The translations under genes and the position numbers were made by a program. Below the pieces are notes generated by a model. That model was not told the origin of the DNA. It saw nothing but the letters and a program-made list of their open reading frames with translations, and searched no databases. From Squalus acanthias (Eukaryota), in the NCBI GenBank assembly GCA_030390025.1, contig CM059434.1, positions 96,472,001 through 96,536,000 on the forward strand: a stretch of 64,000 bases of DNA, in the 5' to 3' direction. Shown piece after piece: positions 2,472 through 61,433 of this stretch. Positions within the stretch are counted from its first letter, which is position 1. Every line of letters begins with the position of its first letter.

Positions 2472-4311
2472 ACAATGTGCAGGGCAGCACATTCTCTCCT
2501 AATAGAGCACTGATTTTGCATTGCAGTGCTCAAGATTACAGTACTGATGCTATGCTATTACCAATAATAACAGCAAATAGATATTATGCTCAGTGTCTCC
2601 TATTCACACTTCCAAAGTCATACTTCAGATTCACAGCTGTCCAGGGCTTCTGTTACCTATCTGTAATGCAATACACTGGCAGAATAATAGCACCCCGCTC
2701 TCCTGCGATTACGTCTTCTCTTTCTCAGCTAGCCTGTCAAGGAGCGGTAGAAGAACAATTTCTTGGAATCCCTTCCTGTAATACTGATAGGCACTTCTTG
2801 GCAACGTCCCAGATGGGGCAAGTTTGACAGCCCAGCACTTCCCCTGCCTTCCCCACTGACTGGGATATTGTGAGCATTAGGACCTGATTGGGAGAGAACA
2901 GGGTTAGAATGAAAACAAAAAAAAGTAAATCTCATTACAATTTTTTTGTTCCACACCTTTTCCCAACATATCCCATTCTGCAACTCAGCATGCATTACTC
3001 TGCAGTGTTTGCCAAACTGAAAATCCCCGCTGAGTTAAGAGAATTGTCAGATTCAATTTTTTAAAAAAGAGCAGACACAACAGCTTTAATGTTCACCAGG
3101 GAAATTCAATTTGGCGCTCAGATTAGTTTCCACACACTGGAAACCAACATGGCAGCCTCTGCTTTCGAGGAGCCCAAGGGTCACGTGTACCTCCTCACCC
3201 AGCCTTGAACAATGTTCCGAGATCAGTGTACAAGGTACAGGTGCATGGGTTTCTAGTGGAATCCATCCCAAGGGAAAAAAAAACCCACATTCTTATTCTA
3301 CACCACTATTAATCTATACCCAATGCACAAAACCCTTCAGAATAGTTCATGGCTATCAGTCGAATGCGTAATCTTAGTGGGTTCTTGCCTGGTGATGTTA
3401 GTGGGGCTGTTCAACTTACGATCAGAGCATTTAGGACATTTTTACCCGCCTTTAACACCAGTTACTCACAGGCGGAGTGGTTTACTGAGGCTCTTTATCA
3501 GTGCTAACAAAATATGCTGCTATTTTAAATGGGATAATGCCAAGCTGTCATACTGAGAATTTATGGGAAAGCAGCAACTCTCTGCCTGCAGCGTGTGAAT
3601 ACTATTAATAGCCAGCAGAGCTGTGAACGAGGCCAGGACAGACAATTCGCAAGCAAAATCCAAGAACAATTCTCTCATTAATCATCCATTTCCTGAGCTG
3701 CCTGAATATGACGATTGAGCAAGTGATTCAGAAAGGGTCTGTGAACCCAGGACTATTAAAAGAAATTATTGTTCACACAGAAGTGACAGAGAGCAAAGAG
3801 AGTGGAAAGCGACACAAGGAGATGGAGCAGACAAATACAGAGATGTTGACATTAAAAATACAATAGCTGGATTAAGAAATATTGTTGCAAAATGTTCCTA
3901 TGTAGGTGTAATCAGTGCTGGTGCTACACTGCATATAGTAGCAGACTTCAAGTTTGTCAATAATTCAGTATCTACTTAGCTAATCTTAAATGCATTCATT
4001 CTTCAAATTCAGGGCCATCAGAAATATGTTTGGAGCAGATTTCTGTCAGAAAATACAGAGGTTCTTCAAGTTTGAGTCTTTAAGAGTTCTTTTTTCAAAT
4101 TCTACATGTATCTGACATTTTATGGCTAGAATATTAAACTGCAGTTTTTGACCTTGCTGCAAGTCTGGGCATTCAAACCTGAGATATCTTTGACCAGGTG
4201 TTTGATGTGATTTTAGTTGATTAACTTTTTTTTCTTTGAACGTTAGGTTACATTGGTTCACCCTATATGGTGTGAGGTATTCGCTGGTGCTTCCACTAGA
4301 CTGTGGGGTAG

Positions 4312-4494
4312 TTAAATCACTGCTGCCAAAGCTGTGTGCTGGGAGCAGCTGAGTGAATCAATAGCTGGAGACAGGCGGCGAGTTTTTGATGAACACGGGC
4401 AATAAGAGGGGGGCTCGGATTGCATCCAAGAGACCAAACTGTTGCGATCCATCAAAGTTTGAGAGACCGTGCTGTGGTTAGTCACACTTTGCTC
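4312..4494 (-). CDS. Candidate next or terminal ANKS1B exon (EQSVTNHSTVSQTLMDRNSLVSWMQSEPP...ALAAVI*)
   Basis: A pyrimidine-rich tract and cacag| acceptor are followed by a phase-0 open frame of 60 codons. I recognise no convincing homology to known ANKS1B C-termini. Confidence 0.25.
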   Translation of the reverse strand, partial: EQSVTNHSTVSQTLMDRNSLVSWMQSEPPSYCPCSSKTRRLSPAIDSLSCSQHTALAAVI

Positions 4495-4563
4495 CTGTGG
4501 CCCTGTCACAGTGCGGAAGACAAAAGAACCTGAGGGCTGAGGCCCTGTCGTTAGGATGGGTGG

Positions 4564-4565
<2 letters not shown>

Positions 4566-4594
<29 letters not shown>
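4566..4594 (+). repeat. Poly-G homopolymer, about 29 nt
   Basis: Read directly. Confidence 0.9.
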
Positions 4595-5920
4595 AGGAGC
4601 GCAGGCACAGAGGGAGGAAAGAGGAAGACTGTGGATATTATTCATTTATTCATTTACTATTTTTCTTATTTTAACTAGGATGTGGGCAGGGGGAAAGTTT
4701 GGATTCCTTTTTGTTTAATGTTTCAAAATTGGAGAGAGCAGGAAACCAAAAGGAACAAATTCAAAAATAAAAGTGAATTAATGCCCGCACATCATATGCA
4801 CAAGGCAGCTGCAGTATCTCTGACACTTAATAATTGTGAGTAAATCTTGCTTGAAGTAAAACTATCTGCAATTTATGAACTCCCCTCCCCAGCATCCCTG
4901 TAGCTGAAGAACTCCTGCAGATTTGGGGACAAAGCCCGAGAGGCGTTTGAATCAAATTTCTGTGCATTTGTGATAGCATCCTCATATTTGGTCACAAGTA
5001 TTTTTCTAGCCAGTTATTAAATATATGATTAGCTTTTGATGTTCATTTCAAGCACTGTCTTCTGTTGGCTGAAATCATCCAATGTGTAAAATATTTTGAG
5101 AACCAGAAGACAGACTGCATTCAAGCAGAAATGTGTTTGAGCTGGTGTATTTTTTCATGCGGCACCTTTTTAAGAACAATCTATTCTAGAAACACTGCGT
5201 GATTGTTCTATTTAGTCATGTTTTAATTCTGTCCTGGTGACCATTCCTGGGCTAAGAGGATGAGCCAGTAGCCTGCTGCCAGGTTTCTGGCACTGTCAAC
5301 CTTACAACTGGGCAGCAGGAGGCAAGTAGAGTGTCTCCGCTTAATCACCCTCCCAAAATGGCATCGGATACCTAGCAGCAAAGAGATAAAGTGGGCTCAA
5401 TTAACTCATATTTAAGTATTTAAATTAGTGATTAGCAGACTAGATTACAAATATGCCTGTCATCTTCACTGCTCATCCATTGATAAACAGCAGAGGTTAG
5501 AAAGCCCATATGATTAATGATTAACACAGAGTCAGAAACTGTATTTTATAGACTCATTATACCTCCTTTGCTGGTGACAAAGGCAAGCTTTGGCTTGCCA
5601 CAGGTCCCTATGGAGAAATTTCAGTCTCGATTTACTGTTTGTAACAGCTCACTAGCAGCACATATAACCAGGTACATTTCAGATAGCAATTCATTTGTAT
5701 AATTACTATTGAAAGGTCACTGTTAACTGATTTCCTTCTGACTGTTTATTGCATGTTAAACAATCCCGCATCCAATTTATGTCAGCAGACACCTTGTCTT
5801 TAATGTACGAGATCTCCAAGTAGCAATGCTCATGAGATACAATGAATTTCTTAGTGCCAATAACAAGCAGAAAAGGATCCATCTTGTTGCTATGCATCTA
5901 TCTGCTTATTAGGCTCTTAC

Positions 5921-28073: not shown

Positions 28074-29197
28074 TCCCGTTTGTTCTGTAGATTAGCTCCA
28101 CCCTGCTGGAGTGGAGCTAATCTACAGAACAAACGGGAAACTGTTCAATCTCCGTCGCCTCCAGTCCAGATCCAAGGTCGTCCCATCCTCTGTCATCGAA
28201 TTACAGTATGCAGACGATGCTTGCGTCTGCGCACACTCGGAAGTCAAACTCCAAACCATCGTCAACACCTTCACTGAAGCGTACGAGAGTATGGGCCTTA
28301 CATTAAACATCTGTAAGACAAAGGTCCTCTACCAACCTGCCCCCGCCACACAGTACTGCCCCCCGATTATCAAAATCCACGACGAGGCCTTGGACAATGT
28401 GGACCACTTTCCATACCTCGGGAGCCTATTGTCAACAAGGGCAGACGTTGATGATGAAGTCCAACACCGCCTTCAGTGTGCCAGTGCAGCCTTCGGTCGC
28501 CTGAGGAAGAAAGTGTTTGAAGACCAGGACCTCAAACCCAGCACTAAGCTCATGGTCTACAGAGCAGTAGTGATACCCGCCCTCCTGTATGCTTCAGAGA
28601 CATGGACCATGTACAGCAGGCACCTCAAAGCACTGGAGAGGTACCACCAACGCTGCCTCCGCAAGATCCTGCAAATCCATTGGCAGGATAGGTCCACCAA
28701 CGTCAGTGTTCTCGCTCAGGCCAACATCTCCAGCATCGAAGCTCTGACAACGCTCGATCAGCTCCGACGGACGGGCCACATCGTCTGCATGCCTGATATG
28801 AGACTCCCAAAACAAGTGCTCTACTTGGAGCTCCGACACGGCAAGAGAGCCCCAGGTGGGCAGAGGAAACGCTTCAAGGACACCCTCAAAGCCTCCTTGA
28901 AGAAGTGCAACATCCCTACCGACACCTGGGAATCTCTGGCCCAAGACTGCACAAAGTGGAGGAGAAGCATCCGGGAAGGCGCCAAACACCTCAAGTCTCT
29001 TTGCCGGGAGCAAGTGGAAGCCAAGCGCAAACAGCGGAAGGCACGCACGTCAACCCAAGCACCCCACCCACCGTCTGCCCCACCTGTGACAGAGACTGTA
29101 GGTCCCGCATTAGGACTCATCAGTCACCTGAGAACTCATTTTTAGTGTGGAAGCAAGTCATCCTCGGTTCCGAGGGACTGCCTAAGAAGGCGGCGGC
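28074..29197 (+). mobile_element. 5'-truncated RTE-clade LINE with a mostly open RT C-terminal ORF (28111-29145)
   Basis: 344-aa ORF with ELQYADD, GLTLNICKTKV and FPYLGS motifs; RTE-type 3' end GAGGGACTGCCTAAGAAG; GGCAGTT duplicated at 28067-28073 and 29198-29204. Confidence 0.93.
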
Positions 29198-30678: not shown

Positions 30679-30845
30679 TTGATTTCCAGCGTGGGAGAAC
30701 CCCTGGCCCAATTAGTCTTTCCATCCTGAAAGTCGCCTCCGATGATGTCATCAATGCTGCTGGATTTAAGGCCTGCAAGCAGCCTTGCTTCTTCTGCAGA
30801 CTACAAACTTCATGCCCATTGCTGTAAGCCCTTATTTCAGCAACG

Positions 30846-32768
30846 ATGTCCAGCAGTAGGCCAAAGTCTGCTCCACGCTTTGATGAAGCCGCCCTGCAAG
30901 CTCTGGTGGAGGGAGCCAGATCCAATAAGGAGTGTGCTCTTCCATTCCTCGAGGAGGAAAAAGCCTCCTCAGCAGACTAAAGCTGTGTGGATGCAAGTGG
31001 CCCAGGAGGTCAATTCTCTGTCTATGTGCTGCAGAACCTGGCTGCAGTGCAGGAAGAGGTTTCATGACCTTCTGCGCACTGGAAAAGTGAGTATGACTTT
31101 CCCATCACCCTCAATCTGATCCCCATCGCCTCTCCTCACCAGCATTCTGCTTTGCCAACCTCTTCCTCCACATCCCACTTGACACCGACATCCCTGCATC
31201 CTTACCCATTCACTTAGCTATACGACTATGCAGCCCTCACACTCCCTATCACTGTTATGCTATGACAATAACTTACAACACACAGGGAGGGCCCTTGGTC
31301 CTGGCAGCTCACTCCATCTTTGTCTCCTTCTAAGCATCTATGCTATGGAATCTCTACACTCACTCCTTCATTTTCACTCAAACTCCACTTGTGTTCCTCA
31401 TTGCAGGAAAAGAGAGCCCACAATAAGAGGGAGAGGGCGAGGACAGGAGGAAGGCCACCCTCAGTAGCCCAGCTCACCCCTGCGGAGGAGGCAGCCCTGG
31501 AGATTGTGGGAGTGGAGGAGGATGCGCAAGTGGGGGACGGACAGACAGGCGCATCACAGCAAGCTGGTGACAGAATAGTTTGGCATCTCTCTCATTGACA
31601 TTGCATGAGTCACTGATAATAAAGCTGATGCTCTAACTGATTGAATAGTGCAGATGATCATAAGTCAATGTTCATGTAACCATGACCTCACATCTCTAAC
31701 TCTATCCTTTACTCCCCCACAGGACCATCCAAAGCCCCCGTCCCCACTGTCCAGGAGGAAGAGCCTGAGCTTCCAGACTCCTCAGAGGAAGCTCCAACCG
31801 CTGAGGGCGCAGCGTCAGCAGAATTCAGAGCACCCAGCACCAGCGCAGACACTCACACCTCGGTGGGACCCTCGTGAGATAGAGTAGTGTTGTCACCTGG
31901 TGTATCACAGCTCACAAGTGAGCATCAGCAGATGGTGGAGAGAGGGACAGCAGTGGAGAGTCCTCGTCGGAGGGCGCAGGACTCTGCCAGCTCGGCTCAG
32001 CTGCATGTTGACCCTGTGCCTCCAGGTCCATCCAGAAGAACAGCGGTGCTGGAACTCCAGGAAGAGGTGCAGGAGTCTCTGGCAGGTTTTGTCTCTAGGG
32101 TAGCTGCGAGTGTGGAGCGAATGGAGGAATCCCTCGCTAACATGAGCAGAGGCTTTGTGGGGGCATTGGCGCATGAATGCAGCACCACGGACAGGATGGC
32201 AACCTCCGTGGAAAGGCTGGCTACGGCCATGGAGGCAGTAAGTCGCTGGAGTGAGGAAAACATGGTGAGTGTTCAGAATAAACTGACATCTCTGGAGGAG
32301 CGATGGTCAGCTATTGAACAGAGAAACCAGAGCTTCATGGAAGTCCTTCTGAGTAGGACTGTCAGTGCAGAGATGGGTCCCCATGGCCCCCCTGATGTGC
32401 AGCAAGGTGCTCTCAAGCCACTTGCAAGCGCTGAGGTGGACCTGACCCATGAGAGGGAAGTTGGTGGCAGACATCAAGGAAGTGGGGGCTCCTCTCCAAG
32501 CGCTCACACTTCCATGCCACTGTAGAGCTCTCGGTCACAGCCCCACCAGAGTCCCCACCCAACTGAGATCGGCGTCTCAACCCCTGCACAGCCACAGGAG
32601 CAGCAGACTGTTGCCGAGCCCTCACAGGCTCGCAACCCCAGAGGACGCCCGCCAAAGGTGTCGAGGCAGGAGCAGCAAGAAAGTGAGCAAGGGGCCTCCA
32701 CATCTGCTGAAGCCACAGGGGAAGCACCACATAGGAGCACGCGTAAAAGAAAAATAATGCACAAGTAG
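30846..32768 (+). pseudogene. Three-exon Harbinger Myb/SANT-like DNA-binding protein gene (exons 30846-31086, 31407-31566, 31723-32768), disrupted
   Basis: Translates as MSSSRPKSAPRFDEAALQALVEG...VWMQVAQEVN...RTWLQCRKRFHDL|EKRAHNKRERARTGG across GT-AG introns, followed by a probable coiled coil, a PRGRPPK AT-hook and a RSTRKRK basic tail. There is one frameshift near 30927 and in-frame stops near 31875 and 32523. Confidence 0.85.
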
Positions 32769-50414: not shown

Positions 50415-52719
50415 ATAATCTTTTACCCAGTGGTAAGACTGCTACCAGCTAAGCTAACGAAGCGATGAGCCATACAGCTTAGGAACTGGAACAATTCACT
50501 TGTTCTGTTATTTTCATTAAGTATTTCATACTTAGTACATTTTGCCTTTTATATCGAACAACAAACCATTAATTTAATTTTACACATTTTTTTCAAATTC
50601 TATCACGTATCCGCTAAAGCAAAGATTCAAATTTGCAAGGTCCCTTGAATTATTCACAGATAGATACAATATAGTGTCCCCTTGAAAATGATTTGTAAGA
50701 TATTTATAAAGAAATCCAGAATGTTGCCTGCAATCTGTAATTTCTTTAAGAACCATCTTAATTCACTTTAATTCTGCATCATATTGCTGGCTTTGTGTTG
50801 CACAACAGTGACACAGTTGTAATTATTAGCTACCTATTTGCTCACACCAGCATATATAGAGTGCATGCATGAGTATCACATACAGTAAGAAACCAAAATG
50901 ACCAAAGCACAGACCCTCCTCCAGCAGCCCCAGGCCAACGCCACTTACTGTTCTGAGAAAAAGAAACAACCCATGTACTCAGCTAATAATTTGATATGAT
51001 CTGACACATGAACATGGCTGGGGCAGAGATGTGTGTAAATTCAGTTTAAATCATCTGAATACAAATTGAATGCAATCCCCAGTGAAAACAGCGTAGAACT
51101 TAAAGAACTAAAAATGCATTCTTTATAACTTCAATTTTTTTCTAGTATTGATCACAAATTCCATCCTTTTGTACCCAAAATGGCTCCATTATTTCACATC
51201 ACTGAGCCAATCAGTTGCATTTCCTATTAGCCTCGTAGTTACTTGGGCAACTGCACCACCAAGTGCTCAAATACAATAATATCATGTTAATGCAAGATAT
51301 TGGTCTCACATAAACTGAATATGCTACATATCCAACTGTACACCTGGTAAACAACATTCACCAATTTGTCATTAGTCTGGATTAACAAACACCAATGGAG
51401 GATGCCGATTATACTTGATACTTAAACTTGTCCATTGCAGGATCAACACACAGATAAAATGTAATCCTTACTACAGGCAGGATGTTCATCGCAGTCAGAA
51501 CTGTTTAGAAAAATAACCAAGATAATTTTGACAAGATTACATCTTTGTTGATGAACTATTCCTAGTTGGTATTTGACAAACAATGAAACAAAAGTCCCCT
51601 TTGAAGTACAAGTTGACTCGCATTGTACGATATACTGAAAGTTGTTATAGACACACATTGTTTACGGATTCCTTATTAATTTAAAAGTACGAACATCTTC
51701 TGTGTCATGCACACAGGGCATGCTATTCCACTGCAAAATGCAGCCAAATAAATCAATGGAAATGAAAATCGGGTGGCTCTATAACGGGCGGGCGATCCGC
51801 TCTGCACCACGCAAGCGTTGAAGGTGAAAATTACCCCCTAGGATGATCGGTTCCACTTTCATCATCACTTATTTGGAAGACTTTGAAGCAGGCACATTTT
51901 GCTCTCAAAGCATTCTACTCCAATACTATATGAGGTGCAATAAGACGAAGCACTACGTGAAATGATATAGCAGTAGAAGCATATAGACAGGATTTGTAGA
52001 ACCAGCCAGCTTTGCTTCCCATTAACGACTATTAGAGAAAGCACAGAGTTCCAAATCCAGATTTTTATTCAAGTAAAGACATTGTGCATGTGCCTGACAA
52101 CCTGAGTTTGTTTTCATTAGATCGCAGAATAAATATAAATTAGGTGGCTCTTTGCCTACCTTAGCCCTTCCATCTAGAAAAGCTTCGGTTCAACATCACA
52201 ACATTCAATTATCTCTTAATTGACTCCAAGCTATGTGCTTTCACTGCCTTACCACAAGTTCATTCCAAGTGTGTTAATCAGTTTCTGTGAAAGAACTTCC
52301 TGGCATCAGTGCTAAATGTGTCTTTTGCCATCTAAACCTGTGTTCCCTTGTCCTATTTTCACAGCATTTCCTGAGTAGTGCTTGCAATTACATTTTCTAG
52401 ATTGCTAAATATCTTATCCACCTCACTAAGCTCCTGTGTCATTTACCTCCATTTCAGTTTCCTCCACCTTTCCTCATAATTCAATCCATTAGGAACACTA
52501 ATGGCACTGATCGCACTAGGGATCAGTCATGTGGCTCGTTTCTCTTTGTGCCACCTCCGGGGATTGAATGTTTCTCTTGTGTCTCAGTAGATCCCTTTGG
52601 ATTTAATATCACTACTGATTGGTTATCATGTCATTGCAAAACATCTGGCACATTCATTTAGAATGCTAATTTTAGAACTTTAAAACATGTACTCCAACTA
52701 CCTCTGCATGAACATTCTG

Positions 52720-55040
52720 TGCTCGCCTTGGTATCGTTCTGGCCCACATGATCCACCCTGACCAGTCCTACATAGTCCCAGGCTGGACCATCCACAACAA
52801 CATCCACCTGGTCCTGGACCTGATCCACCATTCCCAGAGGGCTGATCTGTCGAGCGCCATCCTTTCCCTGGATCAGGAGAAGGCGTTCGACAGGGTGGAT
52901 CGTGAATACTTATTCGGGACTCTGCAGGCATTCGGGTTCGGGATGCATTTCATCACCCGGATCCGACTTCTGTATGCTGCGGCCGAGTGTCTGATTAAGG
53001 TGAACGGATCTTTGACGGCACCCCTTAATTTTGGGAGAGCAGTGAGTCAGGGATGCCCAATGTCTGGACAATTATATACCATTTGTGTGGAGCCTTTCCT
53101 GTGCCTCTTGCAGAAGGAGTTGTCGGGACTGGCTCTGCGCAGGCTATGTGTGGAGGTCGTTCTCTTGGCTTATGCCAATGACATGCTTCTCATGGTCACG
53201 GATCCCGCTGACATGTGGAAGTTGCACGAGTGTCAGTGAGTATACTCTGCCGCGTCCCCCGCAAGGATCAACTGGGATAAATGTTCTGGATTCCTGGTTG
53301 ATCAGTGGCAGGTGGACTCCCTCACGGAGGAGCTCCGGCCCTTTGCCTGGAGCATCACGCACTTCCTGTACCTGGGAGTCTATTTTAGCCCTGCTGAGGA
53401 AGGTTGGCCGGTGAACTAGCAAGAGCTGGAGACCAATGTCACCCATCGCCTAGGGCGCTGGACAGGATCTGCTCTGAGTGCTGTCCTACAGGGGTTGACA
53501 CTAGTCATAAACCAACTGGTGGCCACTATGCTGTTGTACTGTTGGTAACTTTGATCCCTGCCCCAGAGTTTGTCACCAAGATTCAGAGGAAGCTCGTCGA
53601 CTTCTTCTGGGACAAAAGGAAGCATTGGGTCGTTGCTGTGGTTCTGAGTCTCCCGCTTAGGGAGGGCAGTCTGGTGCTGGTTTGCGTTCCACCTTAAGAC
53701 TCTGCAGAGATACCTGTACGTCAAGGATCCTCCTGAATGGTGTGCGCTGGCGATGTTTTTCTTCTGCCAGATACATGGCCTGAATTGACACGTAGCTCCT
53801 GTTTGTTAAGTTGCTCGACATCCATGTGTCCTTGCAGGAGCTGCCTGTCTTTTACTGGGATGTAATCAGGGTCTGGAATATGGTTGTCTCCAGCCAGAGC
53901 TCTCCCCCATCTGGAGCAGAGGCCATACTAAGGGAGGCGCTGCTTAGGAACCTGCACCTCTGGGTGGCCAGCTTTGGCGACACGTGGCTGGCGGAGAGGA
54001 GGGCCCTGGCTGCTAAGGTAACCAGAGTCAGGGATGTACTGGATGGCAGAGGAGCGGGCTGGTTGATGCCAGAGGTTTTGGCAGCTTGGATGTCCTGGCG
54101 CTACATCCGGCCCGTGGCCAAAGCCATCCAGGCACTAAAATCCGCACCCAGCCCTGATTTCACTAGGTTTGTCAAGAAGGCGCAAGCAATCCCGTCTGAA
54201 CCGACTCCTGTTCGGATGGAATTTCTCATCGGCGCAAGGCCCCGAAACCTCCCTCGGGTGCCTGCGCCATCTCTCGGAAATTCCCTCCGTGCCATTCCAC
54301 TCGGGACAGAGGGATTTCCTGTACGGGCTGCTCCTGCACACACTCCGCTTCCTCGCCCTTGGCTTCCGTCCGGACATGCCTTGGTGTGCCATCTTGCCGC
54401 CCAGCGGAGGCGGTGACCCTAATGCAAGGGCTCTCTATGCAAGAGTCCTCCCCTGCATCATTGGGAATCTGGGGTGGAGAGTGTTGCATGGAGCAGTTCC
54501 ATCAAACAGGTTTTTAAGTCTCATCATGGACCCCCAAGCCGCCTGTAACTTTTGCGGCCTGGACAAGTCTGCGTTCCACATTTACACCTGTATGGTTGCC
54601 TGAAGAGGCTGCTCCTCAACCTCTGGCTGCAATTCAGTCCCATGCTCCTGATCTTTGCCCACCTGGTGCGGAGGGGAGCAAGCATGTCTGAGGACCTCCT
54701 CAGGTGGCCATCCACAGGGCCAAGGTTGGACGTGGCCCGTGGGTACGGTTGCTCTGGCTGCCTGCCACTCTTCTGTGGCCTTGTCTGCACCTGGGTGGCC
54801 CTGGAGAAGGAGCACGCAGTGTCCGCCAGTACATTTGAGGCCTTCCGCGACCAGTGGGCATCACAGGGACTGGAGTGTATAGTGGACACGGGCAATATTA
54901 TTTAAGTTACAAATTTCCTTTGTTTTATGATGTAGTTTTCGATTAGTTGTACCCCTTTAAAAGGGGGCACGTTTGTTTGTTTTTGTTTGATGACACTGGT
55001 GCAACTCAGTGTCTCCTTATCGATTAATTAAAGAAAAGGC
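52720..55040 (+). mobile_element. 5'-truncated, disrupted Tx1/L1-clade non-LTR retrotransposon (RT and zinc finger)
   Basis: IHPDQS..VPG, SLDQEKAFDRV, QGCPMSG, LAYAND (degenerate YADD) and a CNFCG...FHIYTC zinc finger, spread over several frames. Confidence 0.92.
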
Positions 55041-55744
55041 ATAAACATTCCGTCAATGGAACAGTTTAACTTTTAACACTAAACACGGAGCTAATTTTTT
55101 TAAAGCATTTTGATATTATAAAATTATGAACTGTAAAATTCCAATGAGAAGTGAGTTTTGTGGAAGCAATACTGTGGTACAGTTTCTAATAAGGCCTCAC
55201 TACAGCAAATAATTCTTGTTAAATAAGATACTGTATATCTATCAAAAAATATTACATTTCTTTACATCCCTGAAAATGAAAAAAACAAGAAATGTACCAG
55301 TGACTTAAAAGAGATGAAAATACACAAAATCTGTATGTTTCACATATGTGCTAACAATACTATTTCTCAATATCTGAACTTAAATTATCCATGACAAGAT
55401 CTGATTATTTAATCATTTCTCAGCAGAAACTTCCGTAGATTCCAGAAGACATGCTGTCTTCTAAATAATGTGACAATTTCAGCCACAGGATGAAGGCTGA
55501 GGCAAATGTGTAGCAGCAGAGAAATTGATGAGTTCATCTAATTCAAGTGTAATAGCAGCCAAGACTGACACAGCATAGAGATAAGGTGCATTCAAGATAA
55601 GTGATTTATACAGGCTTACTTTTCTATCTCATTTCTACTTCCTCAGTAAGCCACTAGGCTATGTTATAACACAACCCTTCAGAATTTAAATCTCTTCAGA
55701 ACTAATAGTTTATTTTCAACGCATCACACGAATCATGAACTTAC

Positions 55745-55897
55745 ATTAATGAGTTCAATTTCCCACAGCTTTTTCACAAGATCCATTGATGTATAACCAT
55801 TTGCCAGAAAGGTCTTGATGTAATCATTCAGCTCTAAAGAATCTAACCAGTCTGCCACAGACGTTGGACTGTTCGCATCGTATCCAATAACTTTAAC
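55745..55897 (-). CDS. ANKS1B: ANKS1B coding exon (SAM2 N-terminal part): [51 protein letters not shown]
   Basis: 153 nt, tttcag| acceptor and |gtaagt donor. Lies inside ORF 55733..55936; SAM motif SVADWL..LEL..Y...F..NGY. Confidence 0.95.
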
Positions 55898-56446
55898 CTG
55901 AAATAAAGGAGAAAAATGCATGTGTAAAAGATGCATAAAATTATGTTGGAGAGCTTGTTCATTTTCATGGAACCCTGCCCTGAGTACCAGTTGTCATATC
56001 TGATACATTCCAAATCATTAGAAAAAGTAGCATGTTAAGATTATAGCTGCCAGGTGGACCCCTGCAGAATATCTACATCCTAATACTGTCAGTTATTATA
56101 GCTTATGTTTTTCCATTAATAACATTTGCTATCTCTAGGCATGGGAGCTAATCATGCAGTTATTATAGTGGCTGAGAACATATTATAATTCCTATTAAGC
56201 ATTGTGACAGAATTAATCATCATATAGAAATATTTTGTGGGGAGTGCAGTTGGTAGATTTAGGAATTTGATGGTACTGTACACCATTACAGTCAGGTTTA
56301 AAACACTTCCATATGCTTTCTGATGATACAGTTGGGCACAATTCAGCCAGCATTACTTTTGAGGAAATGTTTGTCATCAAAACTTGAATCTTCAGGGTAC
56401 TAAGTAAATGTACACAAACCTCAACAAATCACAATTACAAATCAAT

Positions 56447-57006: not shown

Positions 57007-57764
57007 GGACCGGATATTTCGATGCTTACGGGTGTATACGCACCCGTAGGGACATCGGAAATGCCGGTTTCAGGCATGCACAGCGCATGCGCTGAAAACC
57101 GGCATTTCCGATCTGTCAAGAATCCTCTTGACAGATCGGACGCCTGCCCTAGAGAAGGGCCTCTGCGGGCGGATAGTTCCGCTTTCTGGAGACCCTCCGC
57201 CCGCAGAAAACCCTTAGAATTCTTACGCCAGGTAAAAGCAGGTGTAAGGCTGCTTTTACCAGGATAAGAGTTGAAAAAAAGTAAAAATAATAATAATTTT
57301 TTTTCACTCATTTATCATTTAAAAATACTTTTAAAAAAAAGTGAGTTTATTTTTAGCCCCGTAAAAAACTTTAATTATTTTTTTCAAAAAATTAAACTTT
57401 TGTTTAAAATATTTAATTTATTGTAATTTCAACTAATTTTAAAAAGGTGATGGTTTTTTAAAAAAATTATTTAAAGTTTTGCTATGTTTTGGGGGTAATC
57501 TCCATTCAAATATTTGACAGGTCCTCCTGTCAAGTGTATGAAGGGAGATTCCCTTCTCCTATTGGCTCCCCATGGCCCACGTGATCCCAGGGACGCTGCG
57601 AACTGCCTGCGCCCCTGGGATACGTGGGCCCTGCGCACTTGGAGTTTGGAGAGGCCCAGGAGCGGAAGTATAGGCGCCTCGGGAGCCCTCAGGTAAGTTC
57701 GTAGATTTTTTTCCAGATCGGAGGCCTCCGCACGCGGGAAGCCTCCGATCGGAAAATACGGCCC
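57007..57764. mobile_element. Harbinger-type MITE with an AT-rich core
   Basis: Imperfect TIRs GGACCGGATATT...AAAATACGGCCC and TSD AAT/AAT. Confidence 0.75.
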
Positions 57765-58147
57765 AATGTTCAGTGTAGAAGAATATGTTAATATTGTAAG
57801 TTCAATTAAGTAATCTCTTCTGTCTAGCCCAAGCTCTTGCACATAACAAGAATCCATTGGGTTTTGCTACCACATTTGGAAGCAATAAAGAACCAGCATC
57901 CAACTTGATAAACTGAAGTATGGTTGGTTAAAAGACAACCAAAGTCTCTTAATAAAACAGTTCAGTGAGTTTCTGAAAAGTGAAAACATAGATGGAAACC
58001 ATTTTAAAATTATTTGTTTTCTTACAACTTTTAATCGCACAATATGGTAACTAGAGAGAAAAAAATATTTTGCCAGTTTGGACTTGCAAGTGGCTTAAAT
58101 GTGCTTTTGGGCATCTCTCCACACAGAGTTATGTCAAGAATAACATC

Positions 58148-58361
58148 CATGATGTGGAGATGCCGGTGTTGGACTGGGGTGGACAAAAGTGAGAAGTCGC
58201 ACAACACCAGGTTATAGTCCAACAGTTTTATTTGAAATCACAAGCTTTCGGAGCGCTGCTCCTTCGTCAGGTGAAGTCACCTGACGAAGGAGCAGCGCTC
58301 CGAAAGCTTGTGATTTCAAATAAAACTGTTGGACTATAACCTGGTGTTGTGCGACTTCTCA
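58148..58361. mobile_element. Palindromic Penelope-derived insertion with a 13-bp TSD
   Basis: CAAGAATAACATC at 58135-58147 and 58362-58374; perfect inverted arms 58189-58274 and 58277-58362. Confidence 0.88.
58272..58318 (+). ncRNA. Minimal type I hammerhead ribozyme motif (mirror copy on the minus strand at about 58233-58274)
   Basis: Helix I TGAAGTCAC/GTGATTTCA, core CTGACGA, helix II GGAGC-AGC-GCTCC, then GAAA-GC-TT with a vestigial palindromic helix III. Confidence 0.7.
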
Positions 58362-60183
58362 CAAGAATAACATCAGCTGATAAATTCAGGTTATATTCAA
58401 AATTAAATGTCAGCACTGTTTTATCAGGCAATACATCTAATCTAAATGTTACAGCTGAAGAGTCATCTGCTAATTACTAGTCTTTTGTACAAATGTTACT
58501 GTAGCAAGTAAACTAATTGCCCGTGTTGAATTTATTTTATGAAACACTATTAACCTTTAGATTACCAGAAGATTCTGGGAAATTATGGTCTACCTGGGCC
58601 ACTAAATCTTAAACTTCTTACCTTACAAACGATGGCAGTGACACAAATACTAACATTATAGTAATAAATATACTCAATAGTAGTTTAATACTGCATCATC
58701 AATCCTACATTACAAAATAAGCACTTAAAATAATATTTAAAATAATTAAACACTGCTGCTTCTTATTCAATTGCCTACAAATTTTGCCTTTTTCTCTTTT
58801 TCCCCATTTTCTCTCCTATTTTTATAAATTGAGCTTTACTCTCAGTGTATTTTTTCTACCTATTCTCTCCATTCTAAATCTTTTCTCTAAAAATTAACTT
58901 TAAAACCATACATGCTCCCTATCTGCTCTCACCATCCAATCTGGAGAGGGAACAATCGGATAAAATGTTTCGGATTGGCTGACAACAGACTTTAATTTTT
59001 CATCCAATCAAATGCTAAAAATGTAAAAATTGACCGTTTGCATCATAGATGTGACAAGTTCAATATTTAAGTAGGTTCAATCCAGTATCTAGTAAGTAAG
59101 AGTTGACAGTGCAATTTTTTAAAATCTAAAAAGGTTGGCACTTTCACGGTCATAAAGATAACTGGTGGGAGATGTGGAAATGTCACACTGATGAAACAGA
59201 ATAGACATTATTGAGACACTGAAAGGGGAGCCAACCCTAAATTTCTTTTTGATAGCTGATTTACTTGTCATAATTTAACAAATTTCACCATTAGTCAACA
59301 AGTTACAACTTGTCTCAAGTTCCTTGAGTCAACATATTTGATCATTACTGCAATTGCAATTATTTTGGTTCCAGACTACTTTATATAAGCTTATCAACCT
59401 TAATACAAACAAACTCATCACTGGATACACATCATTAGCATTTCCAGATTGCTGATGATATACAGAACAAACTCTAACAGCGCCTACAACCACTGCTGTG
59501 AGGAACTGGCTTAAGATAAGTAAATAACCTCCCATTATCAATAGAAATATATACCTCTTGACAGAGGATATTAAATAACTGGTGTCTCCTAATTATACAG
59601 CACAAGTGCATTTAGATACAGATTGGTATCTAAATTGAACCTAATCATTGGCAAATGGATTGGTTCAACTCATACACAGTTCTGATATTCATATGCAGTA
59701 CATGCATTTATAAAACAGCACATTAGAGCAAAGAACTGTTATCAAATGTGCCTTTATTGACACCAAACTAAAAAGGCAGAATAAATTAGTAATGCCAGCA
59801 GGACTTGCTTTAATCCTTACAACTGTTTCGTAACTTGTTATTCCATTTCCACCAAAAAGGTCAATGGAAGACATAGCACTGAACTTGGCTAATTTCTCAA
59901 TGTGCTTGTTATGGAGTTGGTATAATGGACAAAGTAGTTTCCCACCGAGTGAAGCAGGGAAAAATTTCAGTTGTTTGAATTTTAATGTCAACAAAAAAGT
60001 TTTGTTTGTACATGTTCTACATGGATGAGATCAGAGAGATTGGAGACTTCACAGAAGCTGTAAAATGAACACGAGAGCACCATACTCAACTTCACTGGAT
60101 ATTTCCTAAGTGAATTACTTCTCCACATGATTTAATATAACTACAGCAGGTGTTCTCTTTTCAGACAGCATATCTCAACTTAC

Positions 60184-60282
60184 CCGTGGAAGGCCCCGAA
60201 CTGCCTGCAGGATTCGTTGTCTATGTGAAGAGTTAAGGATTCCGATCTCCAACAAATCCTGGTCTTCCACTACATTGCTTCC
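60184..60282 (-). CDS. ANKS1B: ANKS1B coding exon (C-terminal part of SAM1): [33 protein letters not shown]
   Basis: 99 nt, phase 0, ctag| acceptor and |gtaagt donor on the minus strand. The peptide matches recalled vertebrate ANKS1B SAM1 ([28 protein letters not shown]). Confidence 0.95.
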
Positions 60283-61353: not shown

Positions 61354-61433
61354 CAGACAGCATATCTCAACTTACCCGGGGAAGGCCACGAACTGCCTGC
61401 AGGATTCGTTGTCTATGTGAAGAGTTAAGGATT
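61354..61433 (-). repeat. 80-bp duplicate of 60162-60241 (end of the ANKS1B SAM1 exon, donor site and intron start)
   Basis: Direct comparison: 78 of 80 bases identical. Confidence 0.95.

What the first reader, a model, noticed from the sequence alone, without database searches (positions are those of the whole stretch)
58135..58374. Perfect 174-bp palindrome carrying hammerhead ribozyme cores on both strands of an ANKS1B intron
Seen: a 214-bp insertion with a 13-bp TSD contains two identical 86-bp inverted arms and a 2-nt spacer. Each arm holds CTGACGA-[GGAGC AGC GCTCC]-GAAA-GC-TT, closed by TCAC/GTGA pairing. Known: Penelope-like retroelements carry minimal type I hammerheads with a vestigial palindromic helix III, proposed to act as dimers. 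Inference: this is a very young non-autonomous Penelope derivative. In the ANKS1B pre-mRNA the ribozyme fold would compete with an 86-bp perfect hairpin that masks it, and that hairpin is a potential ADAR or Dicer substrate. The 9-bp helix I forms only on the + strand because it uses the spacer, so the two strands should differ in activity.
Basis: partly seen in the sequence, partly recalled or inferred. Interest (0 to 1): 0.7.

Follow-up and report, generated by a model that had tools for sequence, protein, structure and literature searches.

The report
Twin-primed Penelope stub in shark intron
This perfect DNA palindrome in a shark gene's intron is one of very many short, back-to-back insertions of the front end of a Penelope-type jumping gene; it is likely harmless, and its ends suggest that the element copies its RNA from both sides of the cut at once.

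Summary
The palindrome, 13-bp duplication, hammerhead-like cores and ANKS1B intron are real. The element is two head-to-head copies of the first ~130 nt of the inferred transcript of an autonomous RT + GIY-YIG Penelope-like element found in the same genome. It is common: 14,706 exact cores and 420 copies of the same centre.

It is not a self-copying unit. The one-sided tail lies on either arm (42 versus 20 of 63). Arms sometimes carry different source alleles (12 of 159). Arms pile up at a TATA/Inr start with an extra G. Best reading (inferred): both target strands prime reverse transcription at two start sites, and the two cDNAs join by microhomology.

ANKS1B runs on the minus strand, so the 9-bp helix I and the cut after 58309 are not in its pre-mRNA. 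The minus-strand ribozyme is predicted fully masked. A related species shows an oppositely oriented copy at the same site (one contig). Inverted pLTR plus tail is published. This scan found such shark palindromes before, on other DNA.

The parts
58135..58147 (+). left target-site duplication, 13 bp
   Evidence: identical to 58362-58374; family lengths 7-16, mode 12, in 173 of 206 pairs
58148..58188 (-). 41-nt 'tail'; its last three bases (58150-58148 on -) are the parent ORF's start codon
   Evidence: in locus L231 the same stretch ends at the ATG of an 889-aa RT + GIY-YIG ORF
58148..58278 (-). long arm: inferred transcript 5' end, +1 A at 58277 to +130, with a non-parental G at 58278 (likely a copied cap)
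   Evidence: parent has TATA about 30 nt upstream, an Inr-like TCACTT, and C at this place; G enrichment in the family
58277..58362 (+). short, tail-less arm: transcript positions +4 to +88/89
   Evidence: family 3' ends cluster at about 87-97 and 127-130
58275..58278 (.). head-to-head junction; 58277-58278 fit both arms (2-nt microhomology if the cap base is counted, 1 nt if not)
   Evidence: sequence; 420 exact copies
58238..58274 (-). minimal type I hammerhead motif on the ANKS1B pre-mRNA strand, 4-bp helix I; predicted cut between 58242 and 58241; predicted masked
58272..58318 (+). minimal type I hammerhead motif with the junction-made 9-bp helix I; predicted cut after 58309; antisense to ANKS1B
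58362..58374 (+). right target-site duplication
60181..60282 (-). ANKS1B exon upstream of the intron
   Evidence: tblastn 100% over 34 aa; GT donor
55742..55906 (-). ANKS1B exon downstream of the intron
   Evidence: tblastn 94.5% over 55 aa; AG acceptor

Best explanation
The element is two head-to-head copies of the front end of an endonuclease-bearing Penelope-like retroelement, likely made in one insertion event in which each cut strand of the target primed its own cDNA. Shown: the parent (pLTR, 889-aa RT + GIY-YIG ORF, pLTR, tail) is in this genome. Arm 3' ends cluster at two positions about 40 nt apart, and nearly every pair has one of each. Arm 5' ends stop at or just inside a TATA/Inr start. 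Inferred: the protein, probably a dimer, nicks both strands about 12 nt apart. One 3' end primes at the tail end (at or a few nt past the ORF's ATG), the other at the tail's inner edge using microhomology. Both copy toward the capped 5' end of the element's own uncut mRNA, the cap gives an extra base, and the two cDNA ends anneal over 1-2 nt and are filled in. The templates are usually the same RNA or the same source locus, and sometimes two different RNAs. Because the start sites lie only 90-130 nt from the cap, most products are promoterless stubs like this one. In the ANKS1B intron the stub would form a dead-end 85-bp hairpin with no ribozyme activity and likely no function.
For: Parent: L231 has ORF 2944-5613 between pLTR copies, plus a tail-less inverted arm and an 11-bp duplication; RVT_1 E 2e-8. 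Two 3' ends; 193 of 206 head-to-head pairs have one tail arm and one tail-less arm. This fits the two in vitro RT start sites that bound the tail, extension of both strands, and the predicted dimer of the anole element (PMC11167929). Among copies with this exact centre the tail is on the arm that reaches +1 in 42 and on the other arm in 20 of 63; a fold-back from a tail-less first cDNA has no template for a tail. Arms differ at polymorphic site +52 in 12 of 159 pairs and at +90 in 8 of 77, against 66 transitions in 10,751 other non-CpG sites. Two linked markers differ together in L043, L141, L146 and L267. 35 of 105 tail arms that reach the ATG run on for 3 or more ORF letters. An extra G before +1 occurs 1,278 times even without T-G joins, against 1,448 for A plus T, of which 12 of 30 sampled are a native variant. 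Flush joins that need the extra base were 17 of 30 (G) against 4 of 30 (A/T), and L267 has the extra base on both arms. An extra G from the cap is described for L1 and SVA (PMC11702581, PMC3287187; passages). The same target borders are used in opposite orientation in paralogous repeats (L035 versus L038 and L274).
Against: Most pairs have matching arms: 147 of 159 at +52, where random pairing would give about half mismatched. Fold-back predicts this, and twin priming must explain it by one RNA or one active source. Only 2 of 29 discordant pairs differ at two of the scored substitution sites. L163 has the +18 and loop markers out of their usual phase. Sites +18, +52 and +90 extend homopolymer runs and could be recurrent copying errors, and conversion from paralogs is not excluded. 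This locus's own junction is also explained without a cap (1-nt microhomology). The start site is inferred from sequence, not from RNA. The 206 pairs come from pattern-selected sets, mostly from contig C1, and 28 are best hits to the query. Pfam gave no GIY-YIG hit; the motif was read by eye.
Confidence: 0.65

Rival explanations
1. Fold-back self-priming: one cDNA reaches the RNA 5' end, snaps back and copies itself, and the endonuclease then resolves the hairpin, leaving the tail on one side. Self-priming (on an antisense template) is the reading offered in PMC3846280.
For: Arms match at polymorphic sites in most pairs, rare variants included. Junction microhomology could be intramolecular.
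Against: The tail lies on the shorter arm in 20 of 63 exact-centre copies. Linked markers differ between arms in 4 pairs. Some pairs have the extra base on both arms (L267). The tail-less end matches a second RT start described in vitro (PMC11167929).
Confidence: 0.22
2. A non-autonomous palindromic master element (MITE-like or retrozyme-like) is transcribed and copied as a 214-bp unit.
For: 420 exact copies of the centre; 40 near-identical full-length hits among 40 candidates scored.
Against: The centre occurs with several source haplotypes and either tail side. It is 420 of 14,706 cores, among many other junctions. The stub lacks the TATA box. Tails run on into the ORF.
Confidence: 0.07
3. 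The intronic copy is functional for ANKS1B, as a ribozyme or as a regulatory double-stranded RNA.
For: The pre-mRNA would carry a perfect 85-bp hairpin, which from general knowledge is a plausible ADAR substrate.
Against: The copy is lineage-specific and one of tens of thousands. It lies 1.8 kb and 2.2 kb from the flanking exons. The ribozyme fold is predicted absent. Minimal PLE hammerheads showed no monomer cleavage and low dimer cleavage (PMC4209133).
Confidence: 0.05

Closest known systems
Insertions of endonuclease-bearing Penelope-like elements with an inverted, 5'-truncated pLTR and a one-sided 30-40 bp tail (Pen2a_Av, PMC3846280; general scheme, PMC8557442; passages read)
   Same: Head-to-head inverted pLTR copy, tail on one side, 9-13 bp duplication, TATA and Inr-like TCACT in the pLTR.
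   Different: Reduced to about 90 + 130 nt with no ORF. Here the family sample is large enough to test how the inversion forms, and it favours two primings over self-priming.
PAc, Poseidon element of Anolis carolinensis (PMC11167929; parts 1-2 of 4 read, supplements not seen)
   Same: Internal RT initiation at two sites that bound the tail, AT-rich targets, uncut RNA as main template. The outer end lies 111-114 nt from the start of helix II here and 111-118 nt there.
   Different: The parent here has the extra CX4CxxC linker of the Neptune/Nematis type, and its hammerhead lies about 90 nt before the ATG instead of overlapping it. The parts read do not explain inverted insertions.
Minimal type I hammerheads of metazoan pLTRs (PMC4209133; parts 1-2 of 4 read)
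   Same: 4-bp helix I, extra base before helix II, G10.1-C11.1, palindromic vestigial helix III. That paper already notes pairs on opposite strands 100-700 bp apart.
   Different: Helix II is 5 bp (7-8 in Schistosoma), and the two motifs are only 10 nt apart.
L1 twin priming (as described in PMC11702581; passages)
   Same: Second priming from the other target end, clean duplication, microhomology at the inner junction.
   Different: In L1 the second primer copies a further-upstream part of the RNA. Here both arms copy the same stretch from two fixed start sites, which gives a palindrome.
Non-LTR retrozymes (bioRxiv 10.64898/2026.07.22.740005; part 1 of 5 read)
   Same: PLE-related, hammerhead-bearing, non-coding.
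   Different: Retrozymes are direct tandem repeats; this is a single inverted pair.

Membership tests
EN+ Penelope-like element (insertion product) | parent with one ORF: RT plus C-terminal GIY-YIG carrying two internal cysteines | tested here: met
   L231, 889 aa; RVT_1 E 2e-8; VVY..C..C..YIG read by eye; Pfam gave no GIY-YIG hit
EN+ Penelope-like element (insertion product) | pLTR copies flank the ORF and match the stub | tested here: met
   about 95% over 130 nt at both ends of the L231 ORF
EN+ Penelope-like element (insertion product) | inverted 5'-truncated copy, one-sided tail, variable duplication | tested here: met
Neptune clade | CX2-5CxxC linker before the endonuclease (shared with Nematis, absent in Poseidon; PMC8557442) | tested here: met
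   CHGNLCKTC in the parent
Neptune clade | placement in an RT phylogeny | not tested
   no reference set was fetched; Neptune versus Nematis is not resolved
Minimal type I hammerhead | conserved core with free position 7 and a cleavable H17 | tested here: met
   among 14 variants the core is invariant except position 7 (C, A, G, T) and H17 (T, C)
Minimal type I hammerhead | helices I and II kept by covariation | tested here: inconclusive
   helix I pair 2: UA 8, CG 5, UG 1; outer pair unpaired in 5 of 14; helix II 100% paired but with G-U changes only; the variants are related, so this may be one compensatory event
Minimal type I hammerhead | match to an Rfam hammerhead model | tested here: not met
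   0 matches at gathering score; HH10 E 4.4
Minimal type I hammerhead | self-cleavage as a dimer or with protein help | not testable with these tools
   indirect hint only: about 3- to 4-fold more arm ends at the predicted cut than at two nearby control positions
Non-LTR retrozyme | direct tandem units, each with a hammerhead | tested here: not met
   single inverted pair
Non-autonomous master element copied as a unit | fixed ends and asymmetry inherited by the copies | tested here: not met
   tail on either arm, several haplotypes at one centre

The most novel reading that the evidence does not exclude
Penelope-like elements insert by obligate double priming. A symmetric dimer cuts both target strands and copies the capped 5' end of its RNA twice, from two fixed start sites and at times from two different RNA molecules. 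This one rule would explain the inverted pLTR, the one-sided tail, the flood of tiny palindromes and reuse of one target site in either orientation, even across species. A minority of templates begin at the hammerhead cut, which would be a genomic record of cleavage in living cells.
Probability: 0.5. Interest if true: 0.62.

Novelty: new member of a known kind. Interest (0 to 1): 0.38.

Why it matters
The locus itself is ordinary. The family matters because the origin of inverted and tandem PLE structures is called undefined in PMC8557442, and cleavage by PLE hammerheads in cells was not seen in the RNA-seq search of PMC11167929. Tens of thousands of young copies with readable junctions make both questions testable by counting, and they give exact predictions for the existing in vitro system. 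Searches found no paper that states twin priming for PLEs. The library lacks most subscription papers, and the Lünse et al. dimer paper was not held, so this is not proof that the idea is unpublished.

Tried and rejected
Rfam: only generic microRNA-hairpin hits below gathering score and HH10 at E 4.4, all taken as chance. No second copy of the element was found in the window by BLAST. An apparent pile-up of 5' ends at +6 (24 of 91 arms in the least biased set) came from older subfamilies with another upstream sequence and was dropped. The first impression of arm discordance was redone with proper pairing. Site +36 was set aside as CpG-related, and the +4 row was mis-specified and is not used. 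A target logo gave only weak AT-richness (0.44 bits or less per column). RNA: the listed runs held only contigs with shares of 0.25 or less. The one guessed-RNA run that I laid gave 0 records on the flank, which shows nothing, so editing and small RNAs are untested. A co-fold of two isolated motifs gave cross-paired helix II, not a convincing active dimer. The look-up of earlier findings by sequence was empty. A guessed terminal-repeat match for the repeat at 57600-57770 found no left end. The unaligned contig ends of organism B at this site (24 and 35 letters) were not displayed, so I draw nothing from them.

Full report
Observation. The sequence is as described: arms 58189-58274 and 58277-58362 (86 nt, 100% complementary, 2-nt spacer), a 13-bp duplication and a 214-bp insert. 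The fold is far beyond chance (z -23.8). Rfam does not recognise the hammerhead. PTB-domain exons match ANKS1B structures. Shark homologs place exons at 60282-60181 and 55906-55742 on the minus strand. The element is therefore intronic, and the pre-mRNA carries the minus strand.

Family size. The genome (3.7 Gb) has 68,929 exact matches to a 30-mer of the arm, a motif that older subfamilies share. It has 14,706 exact matches to the 33-mer core and 420 to this exact centre. Head-to-head spacings vary widely.

Parent. An endonuclease-like frame upstream of one copy led to open frames of up to 918 aa. L231 has pLTR, an 889-aa ORF, pLTR and tail, plus a tail-less inverted arm and an 11-bp duplication. 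RT scores in Pfam. The GIY-YIG region has no Pfam hit, but the VVY..C..C..YIG motif and the CX4CxxC linker of the Neptune/Nematis type are visible. The window's fixed end is the ORF's ATG. Upstream of the hammerhead the parent has a TATA box and an Inr-like TCACTT about 30 nt apart. I number from that A as +1 (window 58277 on the minus strand).

Two 3' ends. Arm ends cluster at about +87 to +97 and +127 to +130. Of 206 distinct head-to-head pairs, 193 have one of each, 1 has two tails, 1 has none and 11 are unclear. These pairs came from pattern-selected sets, mostly from contig C1, and 28 are best hits to the query. Of 105 tail arms that reach the ATG, 35 continue for 3 or more ORF letters, so the template ran on into the ORF. 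PMC11167929 (parts 1-2 read) reports two RT start sites that bound the tail, extension of both strands, a predicted dimer and uncut RNA as the main template.

5' ends and the extra G. Short arms stop at or inside +1, and few end between -30 and -4. G directly before +1 occurs 1,278 times without counting T-G joins, and A or T occurs 1,448 times. In 30 sampled loci each, 12 of the A/T set were a native upstream variant. Flush joins that need the extra base were 17 (G) against 4 (A/T), and extra letters ended in G in 5 and in A in 2. L267 carries the extra base on both arms. An extra G from the cap is described for L1 and SVA (passages). The window's own junction fits this (2-nt microhomology) but also fits a 1-nt join without a cap.

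One template or two. Among 67 pairs of the exact-centre set, 63 have the +1/+4 junction. The tail is on the +1 arm in 42, on the other arm in 20, and unclear in 1. This excludes a single master and a simple fold-back for about a third of copies. Arms match at +52 in 147 of 159 pairs, far more than random pairing, but 12 differ, against 0.6% background transitions; at +90, 8 of 77 differ. G at +18 is tied to a loop insertion (30 of 31 arms) and travels with it on one arm only in L043, L141, L146 and L267; L163 breaks the phase. Two different RNAs are thus likely in a minority of insertions. Run-extension errors and gene conversion remain alternatives.

Targets. Duplications of 7-16 bp (mode 12) were found in 173 of 206 pairs, in AT-rich DNA. 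Among 47 pairs of sites in related repeats, 36 lie within 6 nt of the same position. The short windows favour small offsets and the pairs are not independent. L035 has the same borders as L038 and L274 in opposite orientation. In run X8 (organism C) one contig has 18 letters of sense-strand tail directly before 58362, and the left-flank contig ends at 58147 with 24 unaligned letters. This suggests an oppositely oriented copy at this very site. The window's copy has G at 58191 and 58199, the main alleles in organism A and minor ones in B and C, so it is likely a later, separate insertion. Parallel insertion at a favoured site and replacement of an older copy are both open. The evidence is a single short loose end.

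Ribozyme. Fourteen variants, the window's arm plus 13 found identically in both arms of a pair, keep the core, vary at position 7 and H17, and show one compensatory pair in helix I and only wobble changes in helix II. This suggests selection in the parent, with few independent events. Arms that begin at the predicted cut (+37) number about 440 (597 matches, 22 of 30 truly truncated). The controls give about 105 at +36 (230, 14 of 30) and about 150 at +39 (380, 12 of 30). Four of the 22 are explained by a 4-nt microhomology, and stalling at a dimer helix is another explanation, so this is only a hint of cleavage in cells. At this locus the motif follows its own complement on both strands, and predicted helix II probability is about 4e-19. 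PMC4209133 (parts 1-2 read) found no monomer cleavage and low dimer cleavage for such motifs.

Known and new. Inverted pLTR with a tail and a duplication is described (PMC3846280, PMC8557442, PMC8969392; passages). Opposite-strand hammerhead pairs were noted in PMC4209133. PMC2377424 and PMC6765202 (passages) add the pLTR promoter and the dimer view. The retrozyme preprint was read in part 1 of 5 only. No supplements were read; those of PMC11167929 may bear on the start-site mapping. Searches found no statement of twin priming for PLEs. The scan's index holds 82 findings with these words in at least 11 genomes, some with the same reading. These are unchecked notes, and my hypothesis was written down before I saw them.

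Verdict. A real, ordinary stub of a very common shark Penelope-like element, likely without function in ANKS1B. Its family gives good but indirect support for double priming. Interest 0.38.

Noticed in passing
window 58147 and 58362, run X8 (organism C); also X6 (organism B): A contig of a related organism has sense-strand tail letters directly before the right duplication, which suggests an oppositely oriented family member at the same site. Organism B has unaligned letters at both borders that the tool did not show.
   Followed up: partly
window 61354-61433 versus 60162-60241, minus strand: An 80-bp, 97.5% identical duplicate of the 3' part of an ANKS1B exon with its GT donor lies 1.2 kb upstream in the previous intron; it could be a cryptic or alternative exon.
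   Followed up: partly
window 58376: Contigs of both organism-A runs laid (X1, X5) read A where the assembly has G, two bases beyond the right duplication: a heterozygous site or an assembly error.
   Followed up: no
window about 57600-57770: End of another high-copy repeat with a 20-nt imperfect inverted repeat at 57710-57756; present in all four DNA runs laid. No matching left end was found.
   Followed up: partly
window 30730-31119 (+): Myb/SANT-like DNA-binding domain (PF13873, E 4e-8); from recall this is typical of Harbinger-type transposons.
   Followed up: no
window 28096-29145 (+) and 52712-53239 (+): Reverse-transcriptase fragments of non-LTR retrotransposons in ANKS1B introns.
   Followed up: no
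L054/L055 (G000:C1:7561375-7562662) and L043/L044: Pairs of near-identical insertions close together: two copies 1.2 kb apart with the same junction at the predicted cut site, and two loci 17 kb apart with identical flanks.
   Followed up: no
L262: Sense ORF sequence is joined through an extra G to a new +1 start, which looks like a template jump and a possible route to tandem pLTRs.
   Followed up: no
helix II loop across the family: One-base loop insertions differ between arms in 12 of 65 exact-centre pairs, more often than site +52 does; they may arise afresh during copying.
   Followed up: partly
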